DNA of 64,000 nucleotides from Escherichia coli (GCF_011045215.1 NZ_CP049201.1); one strand, 5' to 3'. Shown: positions 3,234 to 62,149, numbered from the stretch's first letter. Made by a program: numbers and translations. The notes: generated from the letters alone by a model not told the origin.

Positions 3234-3427
3234 TTATCGTTATGATCTACAAAGACCACCAGCATAACAAATCCGTGGTCGGTGGCAAAAAAAGCAGATT
3301 TCGCTTATTAAAACCACATATTGATTGAAGTTTGAATAAACGCGCGATTTTTTAAAAAAGTTTGTTGACCTCAGGTCATGATTTCCCTAAATTAGCGCCC
3401 GTTCCAGCAAGACAGGAACGACAATTT

Positions 3428-3515
3428 GGTGAGGTGTCCGAGTGGCTGAAGGAGCACGCCTGGAAAGTGTGTATACGGCAACGTATCGGGGGTTCGAATC
3501 CCCCCCTCACCGCCA
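3428..3515 (+). tRNA. serX: tRNA-Ser (anticodon GGA), serX
   Basis: 88-nt sequence GGTGAGGTGTCCGAGTGGCTGAAGGAGCACGCCTGGAAAGTGTGTATACGGCAACGTATCGGGGGTTCGAATCCCCCCCTCACCGCCA with long variable arm and CCA end; K-12 synteny between ghrA and ycdU. Confidence 0.95.
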
Positions 3516-3521
3516 GATTAT

Positions 3522-3556
3522 AAGCGCATGTTATTGTTTAACATGCGCTTTTTTAT
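3522..3556 (+). terminator. Rho-independent terminator downstream of serX (island-supplied sequence)
   Basis: Inverted repeat aagcgcatgtt / aacatgcgctt followed by T-run. Confidence 0.6.
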
Positions 3557-3664
3557 TTTCCCTTTCAGACAGTATGCCATCGGGTATGCCATCTGAAACC
3601 GGTTTATATGCCCCGCGATCATATCTTATCGGACAATTTCCGATCTTTGAGCATACTGGCAAAG

Positions 3665-4507
3665 CTATACTGCCAGCATATCAGGATAGTGTTTTGCGAT
3701 AATATCATTCAGTCTGTCAACCAGTTCTGGTTTTCTGAACGTGATATGCGCGGAGCCCTTCTTAAAGTATCTGATGCTGAACATCTCATCTTCATAGCTC
3801 TCTTTACCCTGAACAGACTGAATGTGATCATCCAGACGAAGGGTGATGTTTCCCCGGTTGTCGGGGATTGGTTTACCGCTGAACAGGTGCAACATTCTTT
3901 CCAGATCGGCGAGTCGATCTGCCTGTTGCCCGGTGATAAGGTGAAATCCCCACCGGTCCCACCTCACCAGGTTGTTGACGATAATTTTACTGCCAAATTT
4001 GCAGGGGCAATTGGTTTTGTAATTCCAGTTCAATCCTCTGAAGACGTTGATCACCCCTCGCTCAAACACCTCATCCTTATTCTGGTGCAGTTGTTCAAAT
4101 GTGCTCAGAATGTTCGCTTCGCTGATTTCCGGAAAATTATCGTACTCCAGTGACCGGTACCATGTATCACGGGCCTGCGTATCCATTAATGACAGCATCC
4201 CGGAACGTTGCATCAGGTCACGCCAGATTTCGCGATCAAGATTCCGGGTAATGGCTTTCATTGCTGTTTCGGGTTTCTCCATCAGCCAGCAACCGCAGCG
4301 AAAATCCTGTTTCATGGCCCAGTCCGGGGCAGTTTTACCTCCGATGCTTTCCGTCAGCACCGAGATTTCAGCCAGTTGTCGGATAAGTGTGTCGATTTGC
4401 AACAGTGTACTCTTTCGTACAGCCAGAATGTGGCGAATGCTGGTTGAGCAGATAACGTCCGTATGCCCGTTGACCACTTCCGGACGGGAGATTGTGATAT
4501 CTGACAT
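3665..4507 (-). CDS. Hypothetical protein, first island gene next to tRNA (possibly DUF4942-like)
   Basis: 280-aa ORF; occupies the position after the cbtA/yeeW block typical of CP4-like islands; family assignment from memory only. Confidence 0.5.
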   Translation of the reverse strand: MSDITISRPEVVNGHTDVICSTSIRHILAVRKSTLLQIDTLIRQLAEISVLTESIGGKTAPDWAMKQDFRCGCWLMEKPETAMKAITRNLDREIWRDLMQRSGMLSLMDTQARDTWYRSLEYDNFPEISEANILSTFEQLHQNKDEVFERGVINVFRGLNWNYKTNCPCKFGSKIIVNNLVRWDRWGFHLITGQQADRLADLERMLHLFSGKPIPDNRGNITLRLDDHIQSVQGKESYEDEMFSIRYFKKGSAHITFRKPELVDRLNDIIAKHYPDMLAV

Positions 4508-4591
4508 AATCGATATTCCTTTTTGCAGATAAATGAAAACGCCAGCCCTGTTCAGGCTGGCGTCAGAGGAATGAAGTCTGGTGAGTGAGCT

Positions 4592-4789
4592 TCACCGGTT
4601 CTGGTGCAGAAGCTGCAGATGACGCAGGGTACGGACATCCTCCCGGGCCTGTTCGATACAGGGCAACAGTGCTGCTGAATCCGTTTTATCCTCATCGTTG
4701 TCAAAGATAATTCCCGATCCGCAGTCGATATTGTCCTGCAGCCACGCAATCAGAATATCCAGCGCTGTTTCCGTGGTTAATGATTTCAT
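4592..4789 (-). CDS. Small hypothetical protein (65 aa from MKSLTTETALD...)
   Basis: Short ORF between DUF gene and yeeW-like gene, same strand. Confidence 0.4.
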   Translation of the reverse strand: MKSLTTETALDILIAWLQDNIDCGSGIIFDNDEDKTDSAALLPCIEQAREDVRTLRHLQLLHQNR

Positions 4790-4800
4790 GTTGTTTCTGG

Positions 4801-5289
4801 TTACCAGTCGAAAGTGGGTAAACCCGGCAGGCATTCAGCGCTGGCATCCAGATGAATGAGACTGACGCCATAACGTCGGGTAAGTGTGACAACCAGACGA
4901 CGGAACGTTTTTGACAGGCCCAGGCGCTTAAGCCGCAGAACCGGGTATGACCACGCATCGGTACGTAACAGATATCCGCTACCTGTGAAATGAATCCATT
5001 CTGATTCGCCGGTGTCATTCGTCTGATGTGACAGCGAGTACAGCCAGGCGTTGTCCTTTTCCGTGATATGTGCGGTACTGCAGCGTATGCCGGTAAGGGC
5101 AGCAAATGGTGGCGTGCAGTCTGCTGAGGTCCGGTCAGATTCATCAACAACACGAAGGGAGTAGCCGTTATCGCAGACCATGTTAATCAGTTCAGCGAGC
5201 TCAATACCATCAACGTCAACGACAATGCGCCCCATGTTCAGTGCCTGCACGTTAATGCTGTCGGCTTCCAGCGTCAGGGCCAGTTTCAT
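4801..5289 (-). CDS. YeeW-like protein (gene downstream of cbtA in CP4-44-type modules)
   Basis: 162-aa ORF overlapping the cbtA stop by 4 nt; position-based assignment. Confidence 0.55.
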   Translation of the reverse strand: MKLALTLEADSINVQALNMGRIVVDVDGIELAELINMVCDNGYSLRVVDESDRTSADCTPPFAALTGIRCSTAHITEKDNAWLYSLSHQTNDTGESEWIHFTGSGYLLRTDAWSYPVLRLKRLGLSKTFRRLVVTLTRRYGVSLIHLDASAECLPGLPTFDW

Positions 5290-5663
5290 TGTTTCGCCCC
5301 CGGATGTTTACCCAGGGTAATGTTATTTACCGTTCTGTAGTTGTCGCGTGTCATCAGGCCGGTTGCCCGGCGTGCCCGGAGGATATCAATACTGTTTATT
5401 AACTGAGAACGGGTACAGGCGCTGAATCCCGGCTGGTCGGTACGCACCAGTGCGTATTTTTCAACGAGAAAGTTCACCGCATTGCACAGTGAAATGCCTG
5501 CCTCAATATGCTGCTCAATCACACGTTCATCAGCGAACGGTGTGTCATTCAGTGTGAGACCGTAATGCTGGTCCAGCAGTCGGGTGAGCAGTGTCTGCCA
5601 GATGGTGACGGGAGACGGGCAGCGCGATGCCTCCCGTACGTGTGTGTCAGGTAATGTTTTCAT
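5286..5663 (-). CDS. cbtA: CbtA/YeeV-family toxin (cytoskeleton-inhibiting type IV TA toxin)
   Basis: Product from MKTLPDTHVREASRCPSPVTIWQTLLTRLLDQHYGLTLNDTPFADER... strongly resembles YeeV/YkfI/YpjF; directly downstream of cbeA. Confidence 0.85.
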   Translation of the reverse strand: MKTLPDTHVREASRCPSPVTIWQTLLTRLLDQHYGLTLNDTPFADERVIEQHIEAGISLCNAVNFLVEKYALVRTDQPGFSACTRSQLINSIDILRARRATGLMTRDNYRTVNNITLGKHPGAKQ

Positions 5664-5709
5664 CTTAAGTTCTCTGTAACTGGTAGTGCTAAAGGTGAGA
5701 TATTCGGGG

Positions 5710-6084
5710 TTATGAGGTGGTTGCGGGTGCCAGTGTCGAATAAACAGCCATATAAACGTAACCACAGCTGCCGAGGGTGTCGGCTTCGCAGGTCAGCCCT
5801 CTGGCATACAGCGTGACGGTATGCTGATGGCGGGGATTCAGTTCACCGCTGGTGAGCATGAGTTCCAGTTGTTTCATCAGCAGCGGAAAGGCCTGGTCCA
5901 GATGGTACGCATCCGCGTCGCTGAACCGGCCTCTGATACCGGCGCGGTCTGCAAGGTAATGCAACCGGTTACCCTCCTGCACCAGACGTGCTCCGAAACA
6001 AGGTGTCACGGTACAGGGCAGTCCCCACCAGGGGCGGCCGCGATTGTCGTCGGGATGAGTTGTCTCATGGAGTGTGTCTGACAC
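5710..6084 (-). CDS. cbeA: CbeA/YeeU-family antitoxin
   Basis: 124-aa ORF MSDTL...RPWWGLPCTVTPCFGARLVQEGNRLHYLADRAGIRG... matches YeeU/YafW/YfjZ family. Confidence 0.85.
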   Translation of the reverse strand: MSDTLHETTHPDDNRGRPWWGLPCTVTPCFGARLVQEGNRLHYLADRAGIRGRFSDADAYHLDQAFPLLMKQLELMLTSGELNPRHQHTVTLYARGLTCEADTLGSCGYVYMAVYSTLAPATTS

Positions 6085-6158
6085 AATAAAATCCTCACAA
6101 AAAATCAGTTAAGAATGGTCCGGTGGCAGCGATAATTCTGCTCATCATTTCTCCTGAC

Positions 6159-6380
6159 TCAGTTCAGAGTGACGCTCATCAGCCGGACATACGGGCCAAA
6201 ACTGTCCTTACGGCGTTCTGCAAACACGGCCAGCACACCGGGAATATCCTGCACTTCACGACCGGTATACGCCTCAGCACTGCCGTGCCAGCGGTATTTG
6301 CCGGTACAGAACGGAAAAAGACGGGATGCAGGATGTTGTTGGTGAATACGCATGGCTTCACCACGGGTGATAATTTTCAT
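6159..6380 (-). CDS. yeeT: YeeT-like DUF987 protein
   Basis: 73-aa ORF MKIITRGEAMRIHQQHPASRLFPFCTGKYRWHGSAEAYTGREVQD... near-identical to recalled YeeT. Confidence 0.85.
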   Translation of the reverse strand: MKIITRGEAMRIHQQHPASRLFPFCTGKYRWHGSAEAYTGREVQDIPGVLAVFAERRKDSFGPYVRLMSVTLN

Positions 6381-6448
6381 GGTGGGATACCTCTGAAGAC
6401 AGAAGATAAAAGTGAAAACAGGTGTGATGTGGTTGTGACGGTGACGGG

Positions 6449-6940
6449 TTAAAGCAGACCGTGTTCCGCAAAGGAGAAAACCTGGTTGCCTCCGACTATC
6501 AGATGGTCCGGCACCCGGATGTCCACCAGGGCCAGCGCCTGTACCAGACGTTCGGTGATAAGCCGGTCTGCCTTACTGGGTGTGACTTCACCGGACGGAT
6601 GATTGTGTGCCAGCACCACGGCTGCGGCATTGTGATACAGGGCGCGTTTAATCACTTCCCGGGGATGGACTTCCGTGCGGTTGATAGTGCCGGTGAAGAG
6701 GGTTTCACCGGCAATCAGCTGATTCTGGTTATTCAGATACAGCACCCGGAATTCTTCACGCTCCAGTCCCGCCATGTTCAGAATCAGCCATTCCCGTGCC
6801 GCATGCGTGGAGGTGAAGGCCACGCCGGGTTCATGAAGATGGCGGTCCAGGGTTTTCAGGGCCCGCTGAATGAGACTGCGCTCGCCGGGCGTCATCTCTC
6901 CGGGCAGAAAGGAAAGCTGTTGCATTGCCCCTGCCTCCAT
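6449..6940 (-). CDS. RadC-like JAB-domain protein (YeeS/YfjY/YkfG family)
   Basis: HNHPSG JAB/MPN metalloprotease-like motif; true start possibly the internal ATG 15 nt downstream (MQQLSFLPGEM...). Confidence 0.85.
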   Translation of the reverse strand: MEAGAMQQLSFLPGEMTPGERSLIQRALKTLDRHLHEPGVAFTSTHAAREWLILNMAGLEREEFRVLYLNNQNQLIAGETLFTGTINRTEVHPREVIKRALYHNAAAVVLAHNHPSGEVTPSKADRLITERLVQALALVDIRVPDHLIVGGNQVFSFAEHGLL

Positions 6941-7426
6941 TCAGTCGATGATGCGCATAATGGCGCTGCATTCCGGATGTTGCAGGGCGTAATCCCGCAA
7001 CCGATAATAATGGACCGTCATGGCATAACACTCCGTACGACAGGCATGATGACTGTACGTCATCAGACAGGCGGCAATGCCGGCGGCTTCCGGACTCATT
7101 TCAGCGCGGTTACCGTTCATGGCATTGAACAGTACCCATGTTTCGTCATCATCGTCATCCGGTTCGGGTGCCATAAATGCCCCGCCGTTGTTCAGGGTGT
7201 ACAGATTCCAGATACCACCGCAGTAGTCTTCGCACAGACGGTCCATCCAGCCGAAGACACGGGGTTCCAGGGTCACCCACTGTGGAATGAGGCCAAAGTG
7301 CTGCGGCCAGAAGCTGATGCGCTGTTCATCAGGGACGGGAGTGGCAACCAACTGAGACTGGTTATTCCCTGATGCAGTAGTTACGGAAACAGAAGGTGTG
7401 GTGGAGCTATGCGAAAAGGTTGTCAT
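6941..7426 (-). CDS. Antirestriction protein (KlcA/ArdB-like; YfjX/YafX family)
   Basis: 161-aa ORF with acidic DDDDDE patch; family placement between DUF932 and radC-like genes. Confidence 0.75.
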   Translation of the reverse strand: MTTFSHSSTTPSVSVTTASGNNQSQLVATPVPDEQRISFWPQHFGLIPQWVTLEPRVFGWMDRLCEDYCGGIWNLYTLNNGGAFMAPEPDDDDDETWVLFNAMNGNRAEMSPEAAGIAACLMTYSHHACRTECYAMTVHYYRLRDYALQHPECSAIMRIID

Positions 7427-7517
7427 GAGATGATTCCTTATAAAAAGTAAATGAATGGAAGAATGCCTGGGGATTGGTACAGACGTGAGTCAGGGCTGCA
7501 CTTTCAGGGAAACAGCA

Positions 7518-8336
7518 TTAGCGCATGCTCTCCAGCAGCGTTTCTGCCATCACCCACAATGCGCGATTGAGCTTAATGTCCGTGTCGATGCTGTGAATGG
7601 CACGGGTGTGGATACGTTTTCCTTTAGCGCTGCGACCGGAAATTCCGCCTTTCAGCATATTCTCCTGAATGGTCTGATAAGCACTCCACAGGTCCTTACC
7701 GTAATCCTCCCTGCGTCGTGGTGTCAGAATGTCGGCGGTGGTGACGGGCTGATGTTCGTCACCATAACGGTAAGTCAGTGCCGCCTGTGCCAGCGCCTGG
7801 TGTGCCGGTGGCGGCAGAATCAGCGACTGCATGGCATCACGCTTTTCCTCAATCCGGTCAAAAACGCCCACCACTTCGTAAGCCCCTTCAATAACTTTCT
7901 CCACCACGTCTCCCCGGTGCGGAACACGCACCTCTCCCAGAGACTGACCGCAGACGCACCCGTTCTGACAAACGAATCTGAAGTAACCCGGCAGCATCTG
8001 GTAGCTGGAGGTACCGTCATGGGAATTGAGCAGGATGATTTCCGGGACATGCTGTCCGTTTATCTCTCCGGCCCGCCGCAGACGCAGCATGTGTTTGGTA
8101 TACCCCCGGCGGCCCGGGTCACGTACGCGGGTCTGGCAGGCGAAGAAGGGCTGAAAGCCCTCCCGCTGCAGACTTTCCAGCACGGTGATGGTGGGGATAT
8201 ACGTATAGCGTTCACTGCGGGAGGTATGCCGGTCTTCCCCAAAAATACCGGGTACATAGTGCATCAGCTCTTCATGTGTCAGCGGACGGTCACGGCGTAT
8301 CTGGTTCGCATAACCAAAACGACTTGCTAATCGCAT
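7518..8336 (-). CDS. DUF932-family protein (YfjQ-like)
   Basis: 272-aa ORF; conserved island-module gene upstream of the antirestriction gene. Confidence 0.7.
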   Translation of the reverse strand: MRLASRFGYANQIRRDRPLTHEELMHYVPGIFGEDRHTSRSERYTYIPTITVLESLQREGFQPFFACQTRVRDPGRRGYTKHMLRLRRAGEINGQHVPEIILLNSHDGTSSYQMLPGYFRFVCQNGCVCGQSLGEVRVPHRGDVVEKVIEGAYEVVGVFDRIEEKRDAMQSLILPPPAHQALAQAALTYRYGDEHQPVTTADILTPRRREDYGKDLWSAYQTIQENMLKGGISGRSAKGKRIHTRAIHSIDTDIKLNRALWVMAETLLESMR

Positions 8337-8610
8337 GATCTGCTCCTTATGAATGATTAAGCGGTATAAATGAAAAAGCCGCAGCTCCCGGAGAAGACGC
8401 GGCCTGATGGATGATGTTTATTGTCTGAGGTACCCTTCACGGGCGGGCCACGCATTAAGCTGTTATGACAGCAACCGCCTGCCCGTATGAGAAAGATCCT
8501 TCAGCCAGGACATACTCTGTGTAACCCGGCATATCTGTTTTCTCCTGATAAATAAAAAGCCTCTGCCACGCGTTGTGACAGAGGCTGAAGCATGAAACTG
8601 ACTTCAGGGA

Positions 8611-9066
8611 TCAGTTAACGTTTTTTCCGGAAACGGTAATTAGCAGTGGATGGTAGTCCTGGGGATCGAAAACCGATAACGGCAGACTGACACGATGGCC
8701 GTTACTTTCTTCAGTTGCTTTAATGATTTCGGTTGTGGCGACATTTTCCACGCACTCCGTTTCCAGAAATGCGTCTGTGGTTCGCGTGGCATCACTGTCA
8801 CCAAAGGCTTCCGTTTCCATTTTTCTGGTCACCAGCCTCTGACCATATTTGTCTTTGAGTTGCAGAGTGATGGTGAGGGGGCCAAATCCTTCTCCGTTTC
8901 CGCCATTATCCAGCCGGAACTGGTAAGCACAAATATTTCCCGGGAGCCATATCGTATCTGTATTGCGTATACTGATGTAACGTTGATCCTGTGCCCGGAG
9001 TGGGGCAGACCACGTTAACCCCAGAATGACGCCGGTAATAATGCAGGTTTTGAACAGGTGAATCAT
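8611..9066 (-). CDS. Hypothetical secreted protein (signal peptide)
   Basis: 151-aa ORF with N-terminal hydrophobic signal MIHLFKTCIITGVILGLTWSAPLRA; strong GGAG-type RBS region upstream. Confidence 0.55.
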   Translation of the reverse strand: MIHLFKTCIITGVILGLTWSAPLRAQDQRYISIRNTDTIWLPGNICAYQFRLDNGGNGEGFGPLTITLQLKDKYGQRLVTRKMETEAFGDSDATRTTDAFLETECVENVATTEIIKATEESNGHRVSLPLSVFDPQDYHPLLITVSGKNVN

Positions 9067-9141
9067 GGTATTTACCTCTCTGAGTCATGACGATGACACT
9101 GACAAATCAGGTGATAAAACGTAAAAGGTGCAGAATACTCG

Positions 9142-11664
9142 TTATGCCGGTAACTCCGGGGGTAATGCTTCTTCCAGCCGGTTAACCATATTGCCGAGAT
9201 GGGATGCATCATATTCCATGACGGGGCGTTGCCTGATGATACTGACCACCAGTGGTTTGATTAACATATTGGTCGCGGCCCGTTGTTGTATACCGGCGGC
9301 GAAAATGATCTCCAGAGCATTCTGATCGATAACACGGGCCAGATTCGCGTTCAGATTTTCTGTTTCATGTCCGGTCAGCAGGAAACTGCCGGCAAGCCAT
9401 GTCACCTGTTCCTGAATCATTGCCAGAATTTTGACGCGATCTTCTTCAACCAGCGCTCCGGCAATTTTTCCTGATACAGCGGAGGCAATCATTCCCCCCA
9501 GAACACCGCCAACCACACGCCCTGTCAGTGCACCAAATGGTCCCAGTGGACTGAACAGTATCCCGCCCGCCACTGACCCGACAGCTCCACCTGCCACACC
9601 GGAAGATGCCACGGCAAGATTCCTGATGAACTGCGTACCGGAGATCCGTCCCCGCAACATTTTGATCATGTCAGGGCCGGTTGTGACAGCTACCAGTGCC
9701 AGAGATGTCACCAGCGTACCCTTCATCACTTTGTTCAGGGCACTGATATTTCCTGCACCGGTCCCCTTCTGAAGAGCCAGTCGGACAGTCGGGCTGGCAG
9801 TCGAAAAATCAATGTGCTTCAGCATACCCTGAACAACACTGAGCCGGTGGAGTTGCTGGGTTGTGACGTAGACAGCCAGTGTGCGGGTGAAGGTTTTTCC
9901 TGCCTGGACAGCAGCTGTCTGCAGAGCAGCATCGCGATCGCCGGTGCTGAGCCAGAAGACCGATGCCGTCAGGGCAAAACTGATCCCTCCGGCCGCCAGA
10001 CTGACAACCGAACCCTCGGCAATATCATAAGTGACCGATTCGATGGTCCCGAACCGGGTGATATTACGGGCCTGAGTATAAGTCAGATGTCCCCGACGAA
10101 TCAGCCGGGACGCTTCTGCGGGATCGATTACACCGGGTACTTTACCTTCGCGGATCTTATTCCTCATGGTTTCAACAGCGCCGGCATACTGATCACGGGG
10201 GACTTCCAGTTGCATGGGGCCATTATTTCCCATGTAACGATACTGTCCGTTTTGTCCGTCGAATGCCGCACCGACGCTACGGGCTGCAGTTGAACAATAT
10301 TTCGTCTGGATTTCTGTTCCGCTGACCAGTCTGTCTGCTCCATTTCTGGCATTATTATCACCGAGGATCCGTGCGTTTTTCAGACGGATTCTGTCGACAA
10401 TATGGTTTCCCCGTTCAGCGGCAAACCCATGTCCCTGCCCTCCGGAAGCAAACATTTTCTCATTTGTACTCCAGGTTTCCGGCAGTTTCATGAGAATCAG
10501 ACCATTCGCCGTTGCATCGGAAATAAAACTGTTGTAGGGGCGTTCATAAATTTCCTGACACAGTGTTTCTGTTTCGCGACAAAGAGAGGAGCAGTACCAT
10601 TCCGGATCCGGCTTATGATTTTCCGGGGCATGATGTACTTCTGTCAGCCCGCAGGAGGCACAGACACGAAGCTCATCCACGTGATGGAATGATACAAAAC
10701 GGCGACCTTCTGAAAAGGGATACCAGTCACCGCCGTCCAGGCAACGATCGAGAAAATCGTCATTCGCTTCCGGTGATAAATTCAGGCGGTTCCGGAAGAG
10801 TGTTTTCAGTTCATCAGGTGTGAATGACAGGTTCTCTTTCAACTGTTCGTTAAACCCTGCCATGTTTCTTTCATACCAGGCATTGTTCAGTAACCAGTTT
10901 CCGTCTGCCAGTTCAAATTCCCTCAGCTCTCCCCGGGAAATCCGTTGAGAAATAAGCGTCAGCCAGATGCGCTCCGTCAGTGAGTCAGGAAGGCTGTAAT
11001 CGTTTTGCAAACTGGTCAGCCACGATTTACTGTTGAGCACCGGTTGTTCTTCCAGTGTCTGGCTGATGGCACAGGTCAGTTTTTTCAGCGCCTGGATTTG
11101 GCTGGCCGCCCATAGCAGCGTCACTAATGCAGCCAGCCAGTACAACAACCCGCCCCACCACATCAGTGACGGTGAAATATCGTACTGTAACGCGATCAAT
11201 GGTGCGCATGCAGAACAAGCCATAAGGAAAAAGGCAGTATAAAAACAGCAGTAATATCCGTTAATTTCCTTGCTGATATCTTCTGGTGTGATCCCGTTCT
11301 GCTGAATGTTTTTGATCTGCAGGGGAACAGCCAGCAGACCACCGGCGAGAGCGGTGGTCAGAATAAATTTCACGGAGTCAAAGGTGTGAGACTCCAGCGC
11401 AATATGTTTACCATCAAGTCCCCACATGAAGCTGATGATCATTCCGGCAATCGTCAGAAATACGCCTGCCAGCCAGCGAATATGGAACAACCGGGTTATG
11501 CGTTCGGTGATATAGCCAGCCAGTAAGGCCGGGCCGAACAGACACAGCAATATGAGCCCTGCCAGCGCAGAAGCCGTGCTGATTAATGCTCTGAACAAAA
11601 GGCGAAGAATGGCAAATCCTGCGATCAGCAGGATCAGCGCGCCGACTATCTGTAACATAGTCAC
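9142..11664 (-). CDS. Large inner-membrane protein (YeeR-like by position), 840 aa
   Basis: N-terminal ~200 aa with multiple hydrophobic helices, central cysteine-containing soluble region, C-terminal glycine-rich hydrophobic segment; immediately downstream of the Ag43 gene. Confidence 0.6.
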   Translation of the reverse strand: MTMLQIVGALILLIAGFAILRLLFRALISTASALAGLILLCLFGPALLAGYITERITRLFHIRWLAGVFLTIAGMIISFMWGLDGKHIALESHTFDSVKFILTTALAGGLLAVPLQIKNIQQNGITPEDISKEINGYYCCFYTAFFLMACSACAPLIALQYDISPSLMWWGGLLYWLAALVTLLWAASQIQALKKLTCAISQTLEEQPVLNSKSWLTSLQNDYSLPDSLTERIWLTLISQRISRGELREFELADGNWLLNNAWYERNMAGFNEQLKENLSFTPDELKTLFRNRLNLSPEANDDFLDRCLDGGDWYPFSEGRRFVSFHHVDELRVCASCGLTEVHHAPENHKPDPEWYCSSLCRETETLCQEIYERPYNSFISDATANGLILMKLPETWSTNEKMFASGGQGHGFAAERGNHIVDRIRLKNARILGDNNARNGADRLVSGTEIQTKYCSTAARSVGAAFDGQNGQYRYMGNNGPMQLEVPRDQYAGAVETMRNKIREGKVPGVIDPAEASRLIRRGHLTYTQARNITRFGTIESVTYDIAEGSVVSLAAGGISFALTASVFWLSTGDRDAALQTAAVQAGKTFTRTLAVYVTTQQLHRLSVVQGMLKHIDFSTASPTVRLALQKGTGAGNISALNKVMKGTLVTSLALVAVTTGPDMIKMLRGRISGTQFIRNLAVASSGVAGGAVGSVAGGILFSPLGPFGALTGRVVGGVLGGMIASAVSGKIAGALVEEDRVKILAMIQEQVTWLAGSFLLTGHETENLNANLARVIDQNALEIIFAAGIQQRAATNMLIKPLVVSIIRQRPVMEYDASHLGNMVNRLEEALPPELPA

Positions 11665-11778: not shown

Positions 11779-14628
11779 TCAGAAGGTCACATTCAGCGTG
11801 GCCTGACCGTTATAGCCTTCGGCGCTGTTGCCGCTGACACTGTGGGCATAACCGGCCTGAACGCCCAGGGTGATATTTTCCCGGACACGGGCTTCCAGTC
11901 CGGCCTGCAGGTCCAGTGACGTGCCATTCCGGGACGGTGAAAACGTCATGTTACTGCCGGCGGCGGCTGTACCCATGCTCATGTCACCCCGGGAGCTGAA
12001 AGTGCGGATAACAGAAGGCTGTACCCACCAGTTCACCGGCAGTTCACTCACACGGTGTTTTGCACTGTCGCGCAGAGTGTCACGGGATGAGGTGCCTTCG
12101 CCAAAAGTCATATCGTTGTGGCTGCCCAGACGGAAGCCGGCACGCACATGTTGTGCACTGCCATGCCCGAACTTCACATAACCGGCGTTATCCTGGCCGT
12201 CATCCAGGGAGAGCCCCTGCCAGGTGTACTGCAGTTGTGGCTCCAGCATCAGGTTGTCAGTGATACTGAAGGGCAGACCGGTTTCCAGTGAGCCCAGCCA
12301 GCCCCAGCCCCGGGCGCGGAAGTCGTTATTGTCCGATGACGCTTTCATGCTGTGGCGGGTTCCCTGGGCCACAATGTCAGCCCACAGGCCGGAGGACGTG
12401 TGTACCAGATTCAGGTATCCGCCCAGGCTGCCGGCATCATCCCGGACCGTGCCGGCACGGGAGCCGTCATCATCCTTAACATCAACGGAAGAATGGCCAG
12501 CAGCACCATACACTCCTGTCGTCAGTGACATACCGGCAACCTCTGTTCTCAGCAGGTCACCCTCCAGACGGACGAGGCCATAGCTGCCGCTGCTTTCCGG
12601 CGTGGCCCCACGGGCAATACCACCGTTGTTATCGTGCCCGAGATGACCGCCCTGAATGCTGAGACGGACGCTGTTATTTTCACCGCTTACACCGGTCTGA
12701 TGGCTGCGGGAACCTGCCAGAATCCGGTCATAGTCCATTGCCTGTGTCAGCATGGAGGCATACAGGGGGACTTCAGCACGATAAGCATTTTCACTGCGCA
12801 GGTACCAGTCTTCATCGCTGTCACGGTTCAGGGTGTAGTTAAAGGCGCCGGCCTGAAGCGGGCGACTCAGGGCAAACGCACCTTCTTCTGTGGTAGCACC
12901 ATTCTGTGCATCCACAACCCGGATACCCTGTCCGGAGGTTGCCACCCCGAGGTTACTGTTTCCGACATTTGTAAACGCAAGCCAGGTTTTGCCGGTTGCC
13001 TGACCACCATTAATCACCAGCTGGTCAGAGGCATTACTGCCATCAAGGCTGACACGCATATTGATGGTGCCGCCCTGGCCGGTGAGGTTCGTGGTGGTTA
13101 GTTTATGGAACGTTACCGGGGAGTTACTTTTTGCAACAGCACGGCTCAGCGCGGCATCCGGTGTCGTCTGATTATCAAAGTGAATCTCTCCTGCGTTAAT
13201 AATATCGCCGGTACTGACCACATCACCATTCAGTACCATACTGGCGCCTTTACTGAGCTGTGTTCTGCCACTCAGACTTCCCCCGGCAGCCAGCGTCAGT
13301 GTTCCACGATGTCCGACAGTGGTGTTGCTGGCCAGTCCTCCGGCATTAACCGTAAAGCTGCCGCCATTTTCCAGCAGCAGGCCGCTGGCCTGACCGGATA
13401 TGCCATCAATACTGAACTTACCGCTGGCATTGGTCCCCTCAACAGTGGCACCACTGTCTGCAATCAGGGCACCACCGGATGTCATGGTGACATCTGTTGC
13501 CTTACCACCGGCAGACACTGCCAGGGTACCGCCGTCATCCACCAGTGTTTTCCAGGCTGAATGGCCCTCCAGTACATCCAGGCGACCGCCGGACTCCAGA
13601 ACAACGCCGTCAGCCTTACCGTTTTCCACTGTGAAATTCCCCAGGCGGTTTGTGCCGGTGACAGTTGCAGCAGTACTGGTAACCAGTGCACCGCCCGTGT
13701 TCTGGGTGACTGCAGTGGCTTCCCCGCCGGCATGTACCCTCAGTTCACCGTTCTGATTTATGGTGGTGTTACCGGCAGCGCCACCGGCCTTAACAACCTG
13801 CCAGCCCCCCTCGTTAATTACCGTGTTCAGCGCCAGTCCGTCCTTGTGCACATACTGGTAACCGCCATTCAGTGTGGTATTCAGGGCCCTTCCGTGTACC
13901 GACTGGTCACCACCTGCGTAAATGAGAGTGTCACGGGCTATCCCGGAAGATAAGATAATCTGCCGTCCATTTTTGTTGATGGTGGTGGATTCTGCTGTTC
14001 CCTGGACCTTCTGACCCGTGTACGAGTTGTCAGAATCCGGGCCGCCTTCTGCGCCGGTGTTGATGATGGTTCCTGTTGCCAGCCCGCCACTTTTAACGCT
14101 CTGGTAACCGTCGCGGTTGATAATTGTACCGGTGGCAACCCCGCCCTCATGAACCCACTGCTCGCCTCTGTTATTCAGCGTGGTGTTCACCGCCAGCCCG
14201 TTCAGGCTCTGTCCCCCGCCGTCACGAATAACCGTATCACTGGCTGTTCCCCCCTCCAGCACGACCTGACGACCATTTGTGGTGACAGTGGTGTTTCCGG
14301 CTATCCCGCCATTCTGTATCCATTGCCCACCGGTGTTTTCTTCACTGTCCGGCCCCAGTTCCAGCCCGGTACTGATGGTCATTCCGTTGGCCGTACCGAG
14401 GACAATCTGGTTGTCATGATTTGTCAGTGTTCCGCCGCTCATGGTTTCTCCCGCCTGTACAACCGTGTCAGCAGCCAGTGCCGGGACTGACGTGACAGCA
14501 GCAAGAGACAGCGCAACCGCCACACCGGTGCGTTTTCCCCGTGAGCGGGCCAGTTCGGAGGCCACCACCAGGGTGCCCGTAATGTGATTCCATACCAGCC
14601 TGTAGCTGGTGTTCAGATGTCGTTTCAT
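11779..14628 (-). CDS. flu: Antigen 43 / Cah-type self-associating autotransporter adhesin (949 aa)
   Basis: Extended signal peptide MKRHLNTSYRLVWNHITGTLVVASELARS..., repetitive passenger, C-terminal beta-barrel ending ...GYNGQATLNVTF; length equals the recalled Cah variant. Confidence 0.9.
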   Translation of the reverse strand: MKRHLNTSYRLVWNHITGTLVVASELARSRGKRTGVAVALSLAAVTSVPALAADTVVQAGETMSGGTLTNHDNQIVLGTANGMTISTGLELGPDSEENTGGQWIQNGGIAGNTTVTTNGRQVVLEGGTASDTVIRDGGGQSLNGLAVNTTLNNRGEQWVHEGGVATGTIINRDGYQSVKSGGLATGTIINTGAEGGPDSDNSYTGQKVQGTAESTTINKNGRQIILSSGIARDTLIYAGGDQSVHGRALNTTLNGGYQYVHKDGLALNTVINEGGWQVVKAGGAAGNTTINQNGELRVHAGGEATAVTQNTGGALVTSTAATVTGTNRLGNFTVENGKADGVVLESGGRLDVLEGHSAWKTLVDDGGTLAVSAGGKATDVTMTSGGALIADSGATVEGTNASGKFSIDGISGQASGLLLENGGSFTVNAGGLASNTTVGHRGTLTLAAGGSLSGRTQLSKGASMVLNGDVVSTGDIINAGEIHFDNQTTPDAALSRAVAKSNSPVTFHKLTTTNLTGQGGTINMRVSLDGSNASDQLVINGGQATGKTWLAFTNVGNSNLGVATSGQGIRVVDAQNGATTEEGAFALSRPLQAGAFNYTLNRDSDEDWYLRSENAYRAEVPLYASMLTQAMDYDRILAGSRSHQTGVSGENNSVRLSIQGGHLGHDNNGGIARGATPESSGSYGLVRLEGDLLRTEVAGMSLTTGVYGAAGHSSVDVKDDDGSRAGTVRDDAGSLGGYLNLVHTSSGLWADIVAQGTRHSMKASSDNNDFRARGWGWLGSLETGLPFSITDNLMLEPQLQYTWQGLSLDDGQDNAGYVKFGHGSAQHVRAGFRLGSHNDMTFGEGTSSRDTLRDSAKHRVSELPVNWWVQPSVIRTFSSRGDMSMGTAAAGSNMTFSPSRNGTSLDLQAGLEARVRENITLGVQAGYAHSVSGNSAEGYNGQATLNVTF

Positions 14629-14845
14629 CAGCTTTTCCTTACAGAGGGTGAATAAAAAAGCCGGTACCCACAAATGTGGATACCGGCAGGTACAAAACAG
14701 CATGGTCAGATAAAGTGGTTTTTCCCGGACATAAATGCTTCCCCTCTCTCATCCGCCAGAGAAGTATCAGTCCGTTGTGTGCAATTCCGTTCTGCATGAT
14801 GAAGAGATTCAGCTGCCTTTTCGCAGGCCATTAACCACTACAAAC

Positions 14846-14881
14846 GATCGATACTAACGATCGATACCTGTTTTATCGATC
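14846..14881 (-). promoter_or_regulatory. Three clustered GATC sites: agn43-type Dam/OxyR phase-variation switch
   Basis: aaacGATCGATactaacGATCGATacctgttttatcGATCGtttta about 220 bp upstream of the flu start; GATC at 14846, 14859, 14878. Confidence 0.75.
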
Positions 14882-14999
14882 GTTTTATTCTATTGATAGC
14901 AGGGCAGTCACGCAAGAGAAACAGGAGGGTATGAGGGGTTTGTATCATGTTTTCAGTTGGTTAACGCAATGTAATCAGGCATTTCCCCTGGCAGAGTGT

Positions 15000-20748: not shown

Positions 20749-22088
20749 TGGTGGATTTAATGGTGAATGAGCAACGGTCGAGTACGGCGGGGAAAGATGT
20801 GCCTGCGGGGTATAAACTGACTGAGGTGGGCGTGATTCCTGAGGATTGGGATTGCGTACCATTTGGTAATCTGTTTAAAACAAACACAAAGAAAAAAAAA
20901 GTCAGCGATTATGAGCTAGTTTCATTTATTGGGATGCAGGATGTTAGTGAAGATGCACAATTAAAAAATAATACTCAACTTCCTTTTAAAGAAGTTAAAA
21001 GTGGTTTTACTTACTTTGAAAAAGGGGATGTTTTATTAGCTAAAATAACCCCTTGTTTTGAAAATGGAAAAGGATGTCATACCGCTGATTTACCTACTAA
21101 TGTAGGTTTTGGGAGTACGGAATTTCATGTATTAAGGGAAAATGAAGACTCCGATTCTCGCTTCATCTATTTTTGGACAACTGATAAAAAATTCAGAGCA
21201 TCACTGGAATCTGAAATGGTGGGAAGTGCGGGACACCGTCGTGTGCCGCTAGTTGCTATAGAAAAATATTTGATTCCATGTCCCCCAAATTTGCAAGAGC
21301 AAAGTGCTATTGCTGATTCATTATCTGATATTAATAATTTTATTCTAGCTCTAGAAAAGCTTATCGTTAAAAAACAAGCCATTAAAACCGCTACTATGCA
21401 GCAACTACTGACGGGTAAAACCCGTTTGCCACAGTTTGCGTTACGCAAAGATGGCTCTGCTAAGGGATATAAAAAGAGCGAGTTGGGGGCGATTCCTGAA
21501 GATTGGGTAGTCACAAGCATTGGACAATTTACTGACTGCTGTGCTGGTGGAACTCCGAGTACTAAAATTTCAGCATATTGGGGAGGAACTCATCCTTGGA
21601 TGAGTTCCGGCGAATTACACTTAAAACAAGTGTATGCTGTAGCCGATTATATAACCGACGAAGGGCTTGTTAACTCCAGTACAAAGTATGTGCCTAAAAA
21701 TTCTGTATTAGTCGGATTGGCAGGACAAGGAAAGACTCGAGGGACTGTAGCAATTAATCGCATTGAATTATGTACTAATCAGTCTATTGCTGCGATTTTC
21801 CCCAGCAAACATCATTCCACAGAATTCCTGTTCTATAACCTCGACAGTCGTTATGAGGAACTGAGAAGTTTATCTACTGGTGATGGGGGGCGTGGTGGGT
21901 TGAATCTTACTATTATCAGGAAATTACATCTTGCATTTCCGCCAAAAGAAGAACAAGCCGCCATCGCCGCCATCCTCTCCGATATGGACAAGGAAATCCA
22001 GATCCTGCAACAGCGTCTGGACAAAACCCGCCAGCTTAAGCAAGGGATGATGCAGGAACTGTTAACCGGGAAAATCCGCTTAATATAG
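20748..22088 (+). CDS. hsdS: Type I R-M specificity subunit HsdS
   Basis: Two target-recognition-domain architecture with conserved central and C-terminal repeats (LLTGKTRLP / LLTGKIRL); ATG overlaps hsdM TGA (ATGA). Confidence 0.85.
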   Translation: MVDLMVNEQRSSTAGKDVPAGYKLTEVGVIPEDWDCVPFGNLFKTNTKKKKVSDYELVSFIGMQDVSEDAQLKNNTQLPFKEVKSGFTYFEKGDVLLAKITPCFENGKGCHTADLPTNVGFGSTEFHVLRENEDSDSRFIYFWTTDKKFRASLESEMVGSAGHRRVPLVAIEKYLIPCPPNLQEQSAIADSLSDINNFILALEKLIVKKQAIKTATMQQLLTGKTRLPQFALRKDGSAKGYKKSELGAIPEDWVVTSIGQFTDCCAGGTPSTKISAYWGGTHPWMSSGELHLKQVYAVADYITDEGLVNSSTKYVPKNSVLVGLAGQGKTRGTVAINRIELCTNQSIAAIFPSKHHSTEFLFYNLDSRYEELRSLSTGDGGRGGLNLTIIRKLHLAFPPKEEQAAIAAILSDMDKEIQILQQRLDKTRQLKQGMMQELLTGKIRLI

Positions 22089-22100
22089 AAGGGAAAGCAC

Positions 22101-23821: not shown

Positions 23822-23839
23822 GGGTTTAAGGAGCGCCTT

Positions 23840-37003: not shown

Positions 37004-37064
37004 GCCGGAATATTACTCAATATGAGTTCGCCGGAATATTACGCCTAGCTGGGGGTTTTCTGTG

Positions 37065-37095
37065 CACAAAAAAATCCCGGCATAATGGCCGGGAT
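37065..37095 (-). terminator. Rho-independent terminator after cdiI (end of cdiBCAI operon)
   Basis: Hairpin atcccggc-ataatg-gccgggat preceded on plus strand by A-run (T-run on the transcribed minus strand). Confidence 0.6.
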
Positions 37096-37110
37096 TTGCG
37101 AGCTTTCCCA

Positions 37111-60730: not shown

Positions 60731-61933
60731 TTATTTATTCACAATTTGAGACATCACATAATCCGCCCATGCCTGCATCATCGGTACACGCTGCTCCAGT
60801 AGATCAGTGCGATGATATGCCGCCTCAACCTTATTTTTCAGCGTATGAGCGAGCGCCCTTTCCGCCAGATCCCGCGAATACCCCTGTTCACTACACCAGT
60901 CCCTGAATGTTGAGCGAAAACCATGTGCCGTGGCAACTCGCCCCGGAATGTCACTGACGGCTTTCTTTTTACGCAGAAAACTTGTCAACACCATATCGGA
61001 AAGGATCTGCTGCTTTCTGGGTGAAGGGAACACCAGTTCATCATGCAGGCCACGTATATTTTCCAGAATGTAAATAGCCTGCCGGGATAAAGGAACACGA
61101 TGCTGTAGCCTAGCTTTCATTCTTTCTGCAGGTATAGTCCATACCCGCTTATGAAAATCAATTTCAGCCCAGCGCATTCCCCTGGCTTCGCCCGAGCGAG
61201 TTGCTGTAAGTATCACCATTAATAACAGTGCGCGGGTAACATTATAAGGTTCATCACTATACACACTGGTCGCCACAAAAAGCGGTAACTGCCTCCAGGG
61301 CATTGCGGGTTGGTGTTCATCACGTCCTCTTGTCTGCTGAGGAAGCAAATGGTCAACCACATCAACAGGATTTGCCACACAAAAACCGTGCGCCCATCCC
61401 CACTGCATAACAACATGAATGCGCTGTTTAACCCGGCTTGCCGTTTCTGACAAGGTTAACCAGACTGGACGCAATGTTTCTGCCACGTCCGCAGCCGTAA
61501 TCGAATCCAGCGTTTTTGCTCCCAGTTGAGGAAACGCGTAATTCTCAAGCGTCGATAACCACTGCCTTACATGCTTTGGATTTTCCCATCCAGGAGACAG
61601 TTCTGCATGTACACGCCTGGCTGCATCGGCAAATGTTGGGATAACGACTTTCTCAGATTCAGCCTTTTTAATCTCCAGAGGATCATCACCTGCAGCAAGT
61701 TGCTCTCGCATTATCCGGGCAGTACGTGCAGCTTCAGCAATACTGACCTCTGGGTAAGTTCCCAATCCAGCATTACGTCTTTTTTGTGTCACCGGACTTA
61801 CATAACGAAAAACCCATTTCCCCCGCCCCTTTACTGAAGAAGGATGAAGGGTCAGTCCGGTAATTCCCCCATGGGGCAATGGTTTGTCATCAGGTTTGAT
61901 ATGTCTTGCTTTCGTATCCGTCAATACTGCCAT
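60731..61933 (-). CDS. P4-type tyrosine integrase
   Basis: 400-aa ORF with catalytic R...HxxR...Y core (ATAHGFRSTFRDW; C-terminal tyrosine region) adjacent to the tRNA-3'-end repeat. Confidence 0.9.
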   Translation of the reverse strand: MAVLTDTKARHIKPDDKPLPHGGITGLTLHPSSVKGRGKWVFRYVSPVTQKRRNAGLGTYPEVSIAEAARTARIMREQLAAGDDPLEIKKAESEKVVIPTFADAARRVHAELSPGWENPKHVRQWLSTLENYAFPQLGAKTLDSITAADVAETLRPVWLTLSETASRVKQRIHVVMQWGWAHGFCVANPVDVVDHLLPQQTRGRDEHQPAMPWRQLPLFVATSVYSDEPYNVTRALLLMVILTATRSGEARGMRWAEIDFHKRVWTIPAERMKARLQHRVPLSRQAIYILENIRGLHDELVFPSPRKQQILSDMVLTSFLRKKKAVSDIPGRVATAHGFRSTFRDWCSEQGYSRDLAERALAHTLKNKVEAAYHRTDLLEQRVPMMQAWADYVMSQIVNK

Positions 61934-62090: not shown

Positions 62091-62107
62091 GGTCCCCCTC
62101 ACCGCCA
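62091..62107. repeat. Direct repeat of the serX 3' end (island distal att site)
   Basis: ggtccccctcaccgcca; ccccctcaccgcca matches serX 3' end at 3502..3515. Confidence 0.8.
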
Positions 62108-62149
62108 TATTTAAATAAATATCCTCCGGCATAGCCGGAGGTTTTTCAA

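What the first reader, a model, noticed from the sequence alone, without database searches (positions are those of the whole stretch)
3665..8336. tRNA-proximal CP4-44-like module with an apparently intact CbtA/CbeA toxin-antitoxin pair
The genes from 3665 to 8336 reproduce the conserved end-module of E. coli cryptic prophage-like islands. Unlike K-12, an antirestriction gene (6941..7426) is present and all ORFs appear intact, so the type IV TA system and antirestriction function may be active.
Basis: partly seen in the sequence, partly recalled or inferred. Interest (0 to 1): 0.35.

Follow-up and report, generated by a model that had tools for sequence, protein, structure and literature searches.

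The report
Ordinary CbtA/CbeA island end module
This stretch is the well-known gene block found at one end of E. coli genomic islands inserted at tRNA genes (an anti-restriction gene, a RadC-like enzyme, the CbeA/CbtA toxin-antitoxin pair and companions); here it is complete and looks functional, but it is ordinary.

Summary
Nine intact minus-strand genes lie at the reported coordinates, 149 nt from tRNA-Ser(GGA) serX: DUF932, ArdB, RadC/JAB, DUF987, CbeA, CbtA, DUF5983, DUF957 and DUF4942. All match full-length homologues, and pairwise dN/dS is 0.04-0.37.

The block is the tRNA-proximal end of a ~58.6-kb island. An 18-nt repeat of the serX 3' end bounds the island, and a P4-type integrase sits at the far end. 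The module is CP4-44-like: YeeS/YeeT are 98.6% and CbtA/CbeA 89-90% identical to K-12. K-12 CP4-44 is a deleted derivative of this layout.

The claim "unlike K-12" is wrong in general. K-12 carries ArdB homologues (yafX; yfjX, now lfgA) in CP4-6 and CP4-57, and both are experimentally active.

The same gene order was published for the Shigella SRL island. It recurs across Enterobacterales: RadC-CbeA-CbtA in 62-63 of 64 loci. CbtA-family pairs occur in 4930 of 5426 complete E. coli genomes.

Activity is plausible but untested: F65, the JAMM motif and ~99% identity to crystallised ArdB are all present. Only the allele is new (at most 97.5% nt identity). Verdict: already known, low interest.

One open point remains: the roles of the invariably linked RadC-like gene and of DUF5983, DUF957 and DUF4942.

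The parts
3428..3515 (+). tRNA-Ser(GGA), serX. This is the integration target; its 3' end faces the module.
   Evidence: ARAGORN; Rfam tRNA 53.8 bits; K-12 serX locus
3502..3519 (.). attL core: the last bases of serX, CCCCCTCACCGCCAGATT. It is repeated at the far end of the island.
   Evidence: Direct-repeat family D10; alignment; K-12 empty site shows the native downstream sequence is at the distal copy
3665..4507 (-). DUF4942 protein, 280 aa. It stands alone, without the methyltransferase domain fused to it in some relatives. It has its own Shine-Dalgarno (ribosome-binding) sequence and lies downstream of a terminator hairpin.
4538..4564 (-). Intrinsic-terminator-like hairpin: 11-bp stem with 7 GC pairs, followed by a T-rich tail. 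It lies after DUF957.
   Evidence: sequence read
4592..4789 (-). 65-aa 'DUF957' protein (SRL orf55 / L0009 family). Its own ATG lies 11 nt after the DUF5983 stop.
   Evidence: 100% identical to WP_000839282.1; 502 relatives, mostly 65 aa; dN/dS 0.16-0.18; no hit in current Pfam or NCBIfam
4801..5289 (-). Full-length DUF5983 protein, 162 aa. K-12 YeeW is only its N-terminal fragment. Its start overlaps the cbtA stop by 4 nt (ATGA).
   Evidence: Pfam DUF5983_N + DUF5983; YeeW aligns to residues 5-59 only; C-terminus ...TFDW* conserved across genera; dN/dS 0.14-0.37
5286..5663 (-). CbtA-family toxin, 125 aa. F65 is present; position 15 is Cys.
   Evidence: Pfam 1-112/112; 88.7% to K-12 CbtA; alignment; residues; role of F65 and R15 in PMC5624674
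5710..6084 (-). CbeA/YeeU-family antitoxin, 124 aa. GTG start preceded by a GAGGA Shine-Dalgarno sequence.
   Evidence: Pfam E 1e-54; 89.7% to K-12 CbeA; PDB 2INW/2H28, E 4e-75 / 3e-71; start context
6159..6380 (-). DUF987 protein (YeeT family), 73 aa
   Evidence: Pfam E 5e-40; 98.6% to K-12 YeeT
6449..6925 (-). RadC-like JAB/JAMM protein (YeeS / YkfG / LfgB family), 158 aa, or 163 aa from the ATG at 6940. The JAMM motif HNHPSGEVTPSKAD is intact at residues 107-120.
   Evidence: Pfam RadC E 3e-45; 98.6% to YeeS, 77.9% to LfgB; motif; PDB 2QLC E 1e-25
6941..7426 (-). ArdB/KlcA-family anti-restriction protein, 161 aa
   Evidence: Pfam E 2e-37; residues 24-161 differ at two positions from crystallised ArdB of CFT073, PDB 2WJ9; PHROG anti-restriction E 1e-62
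7518..8336 (-). DUF932 protein (YfjQ/YafZ family), 272 aa
   Evidence: Pfam E 1e-51; 75-76% to YfjQ/YafZ; 61-64% homologues in at least 5000 plasmids, at the oriT-proximal end of an IncF leading region
8395..8531 (-). Remnant of a DUF905 (YkfF-family) gene with an internal deletion. It lies outside the finding and is the one decayed slot of the module.
   Evidence: Frame translations compared with YkfF and with the L002 pseudogene
8558..8586 (-). Intrinsic-terminator-like hairpin (12-bp stem, 7 GC pairs, T-run) after irmA. It marks the upstream limit of the module's transcription unit.
   Evidence: sequence
60731..61933 (-). P4-type tyrosine integrase of the island, at the end distal to serX
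   Evidence: Pfam Arm-DNA-bind_3 + Phage_int_M + Phage_integrase
62094..62111 (.). attR core: a 17/18 repeat of the serX 3' end, followed by the native serX-downstream sequence

Best explanation
What it is. Region 3665-8336 is the conserved terminal module of a ~58.6-kb genomic island. The island has a P4-type integrase and is inserted into the 3' end of tRNA-Ser serX of an E. coli chromosome. It is the complete form of the block that survives in decayed form in K-12 CP4-44. The same block has been described in CP4-57, CP4-6, the Shigella SRL island and the LEE-flanking L0007-L0010 genes.

Transcription (inferred). Eight co-oriented genes sit between two strong terminator hairpins: DUF932, ArdB, RadC/JAB, DUF987, CbeA, CbtA, DUF5983 and DUF957. 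They are probably transcribed as one or two units. ArdB to CbtA corresponds to the K-12 lfgABCDE operon. DUF4942 follows as a separate gene.

Mechanism (by homology, not shown here).
- CbtA binds FtsZ through the conserved F65 surface, and probably also MreB. This blocks division and elongation.
- CbeA neutralises CbtA without binding it, by bundling FtsZ and MreB polymers (type IV logic). Loss of the island or of antitoxin supply would therefore be harmful, which stabilises the element.
- ArdB alleviates type I restriction when the island enters a new host.
- The RadC-like protein is an intact JAMM metalloenzyme. Its homologue LfgB acts as a protease.
- The roles of DUF932, DUF987, DUF5983, DUF957 and DUF4942 are unknown. 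All are maintained by purifying selection.
For: - Gene identities and integrity.
- Purifying selection on all nine genes, dN/dS 0.04-0.37.
- Island borders and integrase.
- The backbone is E. coli (99.7%).
- CP4-44 is collinear but carries deletions of window 6902-10137 and 4675-5140: with K-12 annotations.
- Same gene order at serX and serW in other E. coli.
- Same order published for SRL PAI orf46-56: PMC6980539.
- Synteny in 64 species-representative loci: CbeA 63, RadC 62, DUF932 46, DUF987 44, ArdB 40, DUF4942 28.
- Ten of 60 loci have a tRNA in the same relative position.
- CbtA-family pairs occur in 4930 of 5426 complete genomes, median 3 copies.
- Functional determinants: F65 (PMC5624674); JAMM motif; ArdB ~99% identical to PDB 2WJ9 over the folded part.
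- ArdB homologues are active in vivo: PMC2836571.
- Type IV mechanism and operon notes: PMC5371832.
- lfgABCDE operon and LfgB protease: PMC10846083.
- Terminators bracketing the eight genes, short gaps and the ATGA overlap.
Against: - No expression or activity data exist for this allele.
- The simple scan found no sigma-70 consensus promoter on the coding strand.
- Position 15 of CbtA is Cys. In K-12 CbtA the R15C change abolishes MreB binding. YpjF, YkfI and common CbtA alleles also carry C15, and C15R had no effect in them, so MreB targeting by this allele is uncertain.
- The neighbouring DUF905 gene is decayed.
- In K-12 the upstream genes did not help neutralise YkfI, so treating the whole block as a single functional unit is not established.
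Confidence: 0.85

Rival explanations
1. The block is an 'establishment / anti-defence' cassette. In logic it resembles the leading region of conjugative plasmids and is expressed on entry into a new host. On this reading the CbeA/CbtA pair is part of a larger multi-component system. RadC/JAB would control the antitoxin or toxin, DUF5983 would be translationally coupled to the toxin, and DUF4942 would be a methylase-accessory protein.
For: - DUF932 and an ArdB/KlcA-type anti-restriction gene, plus a DNA methylase, are leading-region genes next to oriT/traM in an IncF plasmid.
- DUF932 homologues occur in at least 5000 plasmids, 88% of them predicted conjugative.
- The DUF4942 domain is fused to class I SAM methyltransferases in ~460-aa relatives.
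- RadC domains are typical of polyvalent proteins of conjugative elements (PMC5512222).
- K-12 YfjX, CbeA, YfjZ and YagB are translocated through the F type IV secretion system, T4SS (PMC11288057).
- RadC is linked to CbeA-CbtA in 62 of 64 loci.
- cbtA and DUF5983 overlap by ATGA.
Against: - No relaxase, oriT or mating-pair genes were identified in the window. They were not searched for exhaustively.
- In K-12 the yafX-ykfG-ykfH genes did not change neutralisation of YkfI.
- DUF5983 is present in only 6 of 64 loci and DUF957 in 1 of 64, so they cannot be core components.
- All of this is guilt by association.
Confidence: 0.25
2. The TA pair is an anti-phage abortive-infection defence carried on a defence-rich island. 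It is not an addiction or establishment function.
For: The same island carries a type I R-M system with an embedded DarT/DarG pair and a CDI (contact-dependent inhibition) locus. TA systems often defend against phage; this is general knowledge.
Against: None of the nine proteins matches PADLOC. No phage-defence phenotype for CbtA/CbeA was found in the papers read. The pair travels with an anti-restriction gene, which is an offensive trait rather than a defensive one.
Confidence: 0.08
3. The module is inert cargo: a decaying remnant that only looks intact.
For: - K-12 copies are visibly decayed.
- The neighbouring DUF905 is a remnant.
- One related island has a frameshifted antitoxin.
- Transcription in K-12 is low.
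Against: - All nine ORFs are full length.
- dN/dS is 0.04-0.37, including comparisons at dS above 1 with other genera.
- Gene order is conserved across Enterobacterales.
Confidence: 0.07

Closest known systems
E. coli K-12 cryptic prophage CP4-44 (yeeP-isrC-flu-yeeR-yeeS-yeeT-cbeA-cbtA-yeeW)
   Same: Collinear DNA. YeeS and YeeT are 98.6%, CbeA 89.7% and CbtA 88.7% identical. The cbtA/yeeW 4-nt overlap is the same, and IsrC/IS102 RNA lies upstream of Ag43 in both.
   Different: K-12 lacks window 6902-10137: the radC 5' end, ardB, DUF932, the DUF905 remnant, irmA and the yeeR 3' part. It also lacks 4675-5140 and DUF4942. YeeW is only the N-terminal third of DUF5983. CP4-44 is not next to serX.
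K-12 CP4-57 lfgABCDE operon (yfjX-yfjY-ypjJ-yfjZ-ypjF) and the CP4-6 thrW-proximal block (yafZ...yafX-ykfG-ykfH-yafW-ykfI)
   Same: The gene order DUF932 ... ArdB-RadC-DUF987-antitoxin-toxin is the same. In CP4-6 the block abuts the 3' end of a tRNA exactly as here. ArdB activity, toxin/antitoxin activity and LfgB protease activity were shown for these copies.
   Different: Proteins are 60-83% identical. The toxins are shorter (109-113 aa). There is no DUF5983, DUF957 or DUF4942; only the ykfN fragment remains.
Shigella flexneri SRL pathogenicity island orf46-orf56, and the L0007-L0010 genes flanking the EDL933 LEE
   Same: The published ORF table lists the same order: YeeP GTPase, Ag43, YfjQ, YfjX/KlcA, YeeS, YeeT, YeeU, YeeV, YeeW-like, DUF957, DUF4942 (PMC6980539). 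From my own knowledge, not checked here, the SRL island is also inserted at serX.
   Different: The cargo of the rest of the island differs: here a type I R-M system with DarTG and a cdiBCAI locus. Sequence identity to SRL was not measured here.
Leading region of IncF conjugative plasmids
   Same: It contains a DUF932 gene (64% aa identity), an ArdB/KlcA-type anti-restriction gene and a DNA methylase, adjacent to oriT/traM.
   Different: The plasmid region shown has no RadC, DUF987 or CbeA/CbtA. No ssb/psiB, oriT or tra genes were seen next to the island module. The resemblance is in gene content, not in demonstrated function.

Membership tests
CbtA/CbeA (YeeV/YeeU) type IV toxin-antitoxin family | Toxin with a full-length CbtA_toxin domain (PF06755) | tested here: met
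   E 4.7e-63, profile 1-112/112; 88.7% identical to K-12 CbtA
CbtA/CbeA (YeeV/YeeU) type IV toxin-antitoxin family | CbeA_antitoxin (PF06154) gene immediately upstream on the same strand | tested here: met
   E 1.4e-54; 46-nt gap; matches YeeU structures 2INW and 2H28
CbtA/CbeA (YeeV/YeeU) type IV toxin-antitoxin family | FtsZ-interaction determinant F65 | tested here: met
   F at position 65; its role is shown in PMC5624674
CbtA/CbeA (YeeV/YeeU) type IV toxin-antitoxin family | MreB-interaction determinant R15 of K-12 CbtA | tested here: not met
   Position 15 is Cys. YpjF, YkfI and RefSeq WP_000854914.1 also have C15. R15 is not conserved in the family, so this does not exclude membership.
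CbtA/CbeA (YeeV/YeeU) type IV toxin-antitoxin family | Toxicity, rescue by the antitoxin, and antitoxin action on the target rather than on the toxin (the definition of type IV) | not testable with these tools
   Known only for the K-12 homologues
ArdB/KlcA anti-restriction proteins | Antirestrict domain (PF03230) and the ArdB fold | tested here: met
   E 2.4e-37; residues 24-161 differ at 2 positions from PDB 2WJ9 and match KlcA 2KMG at E 6e-20
ArdB/KlcA anti-restriction proteins | Alleviation of type I restriction in vivo | not testable with these tools
   Shown for ArdB-CFT, YafX and YfjX in PMC2836571
RadC-like JAB/JAMM enzymes | RadC domain with the HxHx7Sx2D metal site | tested here: met
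   PF04002 E 3e-45; HNHPSGEVTPSKAD at residues 107-120; PDB 2QLC
tRNA-integrated islands with a P4-type integrase (CP4-like) | Insertion at a tRNA 3' end, flanking direct repeats, and a tyrosine integrase at one end | tested here: met
   Here the integrase is at the end distal to the tRNA, as in CP4-6.
Conjugative leading-region / anti-defence cassette | Adjacency to oriT, with entry as the first transferred DNA and early expression | not tested
   Only shared gene content was seen. No oriT or relaxase search was done in the window.
Known anti-phage defence systems (PADLOC) | Match of any component to a defence-system model | tested here: not met
   0 hits for all nine proteins

The most novel reading that the evidence does not exclude
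The CbeA/CbtA pair may not be a self-contained two-gene TA system. It could be the core of a larger selected unit. The RadC-like JAMM enzyme is linked to it in 62 of 64 Enterobacterales loci and could act as the missing activation or regulation step. In the Escherichia/Serratia/Erwinia branch, a toxin-coupled DUF5983 (with or without DUF957) would add further control. Together with ArdB, DUF932 and DUF4942, the block would then act as an island establishment cassette analogous to plasmid leading regions.
Probability: 0.2. Interest if true: 0.5.

Novelty: already known. Interest (0 to 1): 0.12.

Why it matters
As found, this matters little. It is a correct annotation of one of the most repeated accessory blocks in E. 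coli, with a new allele and a complete gene set.

Its practical value is as an intact template. K-12, where all functional work was done, has only truncated copies, so DUF5983, DUF957 and DUF4942 have never been studied. How type IV CbtA toxins are activated is still stated to be unknown (PMC5371832). The near-invariant RadC-CbeA-CbtA linkage measured here gives a concrete candidate to test.

Tried and rejected

2. DUF5983 function by structure. The alignment is shallow and the model poor (pLDDT 60). Foldseek gave nothing at E<=0.001. No inference was drawn.

3. Known defence systems. PADLOC gave no hits.

4. Non-coding RNAs. Rfam found only the tRNA within 3300-8700.

5. NCBIfam added nothing beyond RadC.

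6. Programmed frameshift joining DUF5983 to the downstream ORF. This idea came from the preprint on AntiFam ANF00264. I rejected it as the simplest reading here. DUF5983 ends at the same conserved ...TFDW* in six genera. DUF957 has its own ATG 11-20 nt downstream and evolves under purifying selection. I could not check whether ANF00264 corresponds to DUF957 or to the DUF5983 N-terminal domain, because AntiFam is not available.

7. Long plus-strand ORFs antisense to the module have no family matches and were rejected as genes.

8. C15 in CbtA as a natural MreB-blind variant. I rejected this as notable, because C15 is the common state in YpjF, YkfI and other alleles, and C15R had no effect in them.

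Full report
**Observation**

The window opens with E. coli backbone genes (ycdZ, ycdY, ycdX, ghrA) that are 99.7% identical to sequenced E. coli. They are followed by tRNA-Ser(GGA) serX at 3428..3515 on the plus strand.

Eight of the nine have full-length Pfam matches: DUF4942, DUF5983 (N and C domains), CbtA_toxin (1-112 of 112), CbeA_antitoxin, DUF987, RadC-like JAB, Antirestrict and DUF932.

The ninth, 4592..4789, is 65 aa and has no model in current Pfam or NCBIfam. It is 100% identical to a RefSeq protein that NCBI calls DUF957, and it has 502 relatives, mostly 65 aa long.

Every protein aligns end to end with homologues of the same length. Pairwise dN/dS against E. coli, E. albertii, Serratia, Erwinia and Klebsiella copies is 0.04-0.37 for all nine genes. 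The long plus-strand ORFs that overlap them have no family match.

**Context**

An 18-nt copy of the serX 3' end (CCCCCTCACCGCCAGATT, 3502-3519) recurs with one mismatch at 62094-62111. Next to that distal copy lies a 400-aa tyrosine integrase with a P4-type arm-binding domain (60731..61933). Comparison with the empty K-12 serX site shows that the native serX-downstream sequence sits at the distal copy and that ycdU follows it.

The finding is thus the tRNA-proximal end of a ~58.6-kb integrated island. Moving inward from the module, the island carries:

- IrmA, an 840-aa YeeR-like protein, Ag43 with IsrC/IS102 RNA, and a YeeP-like GTPase.
- A type I R-M system with an embedded DarT/DarG pair.
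- A cdiB-cdiC-cdiA-cdiI locus.
- A DUF3987 protein and AlpA.

**Anatomy of the module**

Gaps between successive genes are 91, 15, 68, 74, 46, -4, 11 and 84 nt. The cbtA stop overlaps the DUF5983 start (ATGA), and the DUF957 ATG lies 11 nt after the DUF5983 stop.

Two strong terminator-like hairpins on the coding strand bracket the eight genes from DUF932 to DUF957. One is at 8586-8558, after irmA; the other is at 4564-4538, after DUF957. DUF4942 follows the second hairpin with its own Shine-Dalgarno sequence.

The simple scan found no sigma-70 consensus promoter on this strand. In K-12 the homologous ArdB-to-toxin genes are treated as one operon, lfgABCDE, with a promoter upstream of lfgA (PMC10846083). 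Wen et al. likewise considered yafX-ykfG-ykfH-yafW-ykfI co-transcribed (PMC5371832). The operon structure in this window is inferred, not shown.

**Comparison with K-12**

The module is CP4-44-like.

| Protein | K-12 CP4-44 | CP4-57 / CP4-6 |
|---|---|---|
| YeeS | 98.6% | RadC 78-83% |
| YeeT | 98.6% | DUF987 64-66% |
| CbeA | 89.7% | antitoxin 64-68% |
| CbtA | 88.7% | toxin 61-65% |

(All values.)

At the DNA level K-12 CP4-44 is collinear but lacks window 6902-10137. That ~3.2-kb deletion removes the radC 5' end, ardB, DUF932, irmA and the yeeR 3' part, and it fuses yeeR to yeeS. K-12 also lacks 4675-5140 and DUF4942. K-12 YeeW corresponds only to residues 5-59 of DUF5983.

CP4-57 (yfjX, now lfgA) and CP4-6 (yafX) carry ArdB homologues in the same slot, 67-69% identical to the window protein. 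Both were shown to alleviate type I restriction in vivo (PMC2836571). In CP4-6 the block also abuts a tRNA 3' end (thrW), just as here.

**How common and how old**

- A 5-kb query covering the module matches at 80% coverage or better in 3633 of 5426 complete E. coli genomes.
- The TA pair alone is found in 4930 genomes, with a median of 3 and a maximum of 13 copies.
- The same nine genes sit next to serX in O157-type strains and next to serW in others.
- The published ORF table of the Shigella SRL island lists the same order, orf46-56, with the L0007-L0010 equivalents (PMC6980539).

Using CbtA as bait, 80 loci were recovered from one-genome-per-species collections. Among 64 loci with enough flank, genes present on the same strand were as follows:

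| Gene | Loci (of 64) | Position relative to CbtA |
|---|---|---|
| CbeA | 63 | upstream |
| RadC | 62 | upstream |
| DUF932 | 46 | upstream |
| DUF987 | 44 | upstream |
| ArdB | 40 | upstream |
| DUF4942 | 28 | downstream |
| DUF5983 | 6 | downstream |
| DUF957 | 1 | downstream |

In 10 of 60 loci a tRNA gene (Met, Arg or Thr) lies just beyond the module in the same relative orientation.

This allele is a mosaic. Positions 3516-4789 are 98.8-100% identical to the serX and serW islands. The TA core and DUF932 are only 90-93% identical. The best match of the TA pair in any complete genome is 97.5%.

**Functional determinants**

- CbtA keeps F65, which is required for FtsZ binding in CbtA, YpjF and YkfI. 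It has C15, as do YpjF, YkfI and a common RefSeq allele. R15C abolishes MreB binding in K-12 CbtA, but R15 is not conserved and C15R had no effect in the paralogues. MreB targeting by this allele is therefore uncertain.
- CbeA matches the YeeU crystal structures.
- ArdB differs at two positions from crystallised ArdB of CFT073 over residues 24-161.
- The RadC-like protein has an intact HxHx7Sx2D site. Its K-12 homologue LfgB degraded MqsA in vitro. Others argue that RadC domains process nucleic acids (PMC5512222).

**Most likely mechanism**

All of this rests on homology. CbtA blocks FtsZ, and probably MreB. CbeA counteracts it by bundling those polymers rather than by binding the toxin. This gives the island a stabilising function. 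ArdB protects island DNA from type I restriction on entry into a new host.

**A broader reading**

This reading is not excluded but rests only on association. DUF932 and an ArdB/KlcA-type gene, together with a DNA methylase, are leading-region genes beside oriT in IncF plasmids. DUF4942 is fused to SAM methyltransferases in some relatives. K-12 YfjX, CbeA, YfjZ and YagB are substrates of the F T4SS (PMC11288057). The block may therefore be an establishment cassette, with RadC as a regulator of the TA pair.

**What led nowhere**

- Structure-based inference gave nothing for DUF4942: a good model but no PDB neighbour.
- It gave nothing for DUF5983 either, where the model was poor.
- PADLOC returned no hits.
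- Rfam found nothing beyond the tRNA.
- A programmed-frameshift link between DUF5983 and the next ORF was considered, following the preprint on AntiFam ANF00264. It is not favoured, because the DUF5983 C-terminus is conserved to its stop in six genera and DUF957 has its own start.

**Verdict**

The system is already known and extremely common, so interest is low. The residual question is what the RadC-like gene and the DUF5983, DUF957 and DUF4942 genes do. These last three are missing from K-12.

Noticed in passing
window 18310-27651 (+): A type I R-M locus (hsdM 18310-20748, hsdS 20742-22088, hsdR 23840-26935, M48 peptidase 26935-27651) has a DarT/DarG toxin-antitoxin pair inserted between hsdS and hsdR (22101-22757, 22742-23821). 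The same island therefore carries both an anti-type-I-restriction gene (ArdB) and its own type I system.
   Followed up: partly
window 37111-48857 (-), and 29312-30208 (-): A contact-dependent inhibition locus: CdiB (47118-48857), an HlyC-family acyltransferase (46581-47108, CdiC-like), a 3024-aa CdiA (37491-46565) and CdiI (37111-37485). A separate ORF with a PT-VENN pre-toxin motif (29312-30208) looks like an orphan CdiA-CT.
   Followed up: partly
window about 8395-8531 (-): A DUF905 (YkfF-family) gene between DUF932 and irmA is an internally deleted remnant. A 25-aa N-terminal ORF is followed by the out-of-frame C-terminal end. The same slot is frameshifted in strain 300033 and decayed in E. 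albertii.
   Followed up: yes
loci L006-L085: RadC-like JAB is present upstream of CbeA-CbtA in 62 of 64 species-representative loci. It is far more constant than ArdB (40), DUF987 (44) or DUF932 (46). I found no paper that tests a functional link between the JAB enzyme and this TA pair.
   Followed up: partly
window 4790-4800; L006, L007, L008: The spacer between the DUF5983 stop and the DUF957 ATG is 11, 17 or 20 nt in different copies. All are 2 mod 3, so the two frames keep the same offset. With three observations this could be chance.
   Followed up: no
window 4592-4789 and 5125-5289 (-): Current Pfam has no model for the 'DUF957' protein. A 2026 preprint argues that AntiFam entry ANF00264, found next to DUF5983 and cbtA, is a real protein. 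I could not determine whether that entry is DUF957 or the DUF5983 N-terminal (YeeW-like) domain.
   Followed up: partly
L007, L008, L036, L069, L079: Short contigs binned as Collinsella, Lachnospiraceae, Clostridiales and Arthrobacter carry CbtA copies of enterobacterial type. In L007, L008, L069 and L079 the copies are 88-97% identical to the window's CbtA at the amino-acid level. The L036 copy is only 53% identical but sits in an otherwise typical module. These are most likely binning or assembly contamination rather than true host range.
   Followed up: no
window 14647-14883 (-): An IS102/IsrC RNA match (74 bits) lies directly upstream of the Ag43 gene (11779-14703), as in K-12 CP4-44.
   Followed up: no
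window 62691-62814 (-); 37043-37097 and 62800-62854: A full-length STnc490 Hfq-binding sRNA match (146 bits) lies just outside the distal island border. A 55-nt element at its edge is repeated inside the island (80% identity) and occurs three times between serX and ycdU in K-12.
   Followed up: no
window 56458-57215: Two diverged direct repeats (233 nt at 75% identity and 74 nt at 74% identity, spacing ~466 nt) lie between the DUF3987 gene and the AlpA-like gene near the integrase end of the island. They are unexplained.
   Followed up: no
window 3516-4789 versus 4801-8336: Identity to other serX and serW islands drops from 98.8-100% in the tRNA-proximal 1.3 kb to 90-95% in the rest of the module. 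This suggests recombination between paralogous modules.
   Followed up: partly
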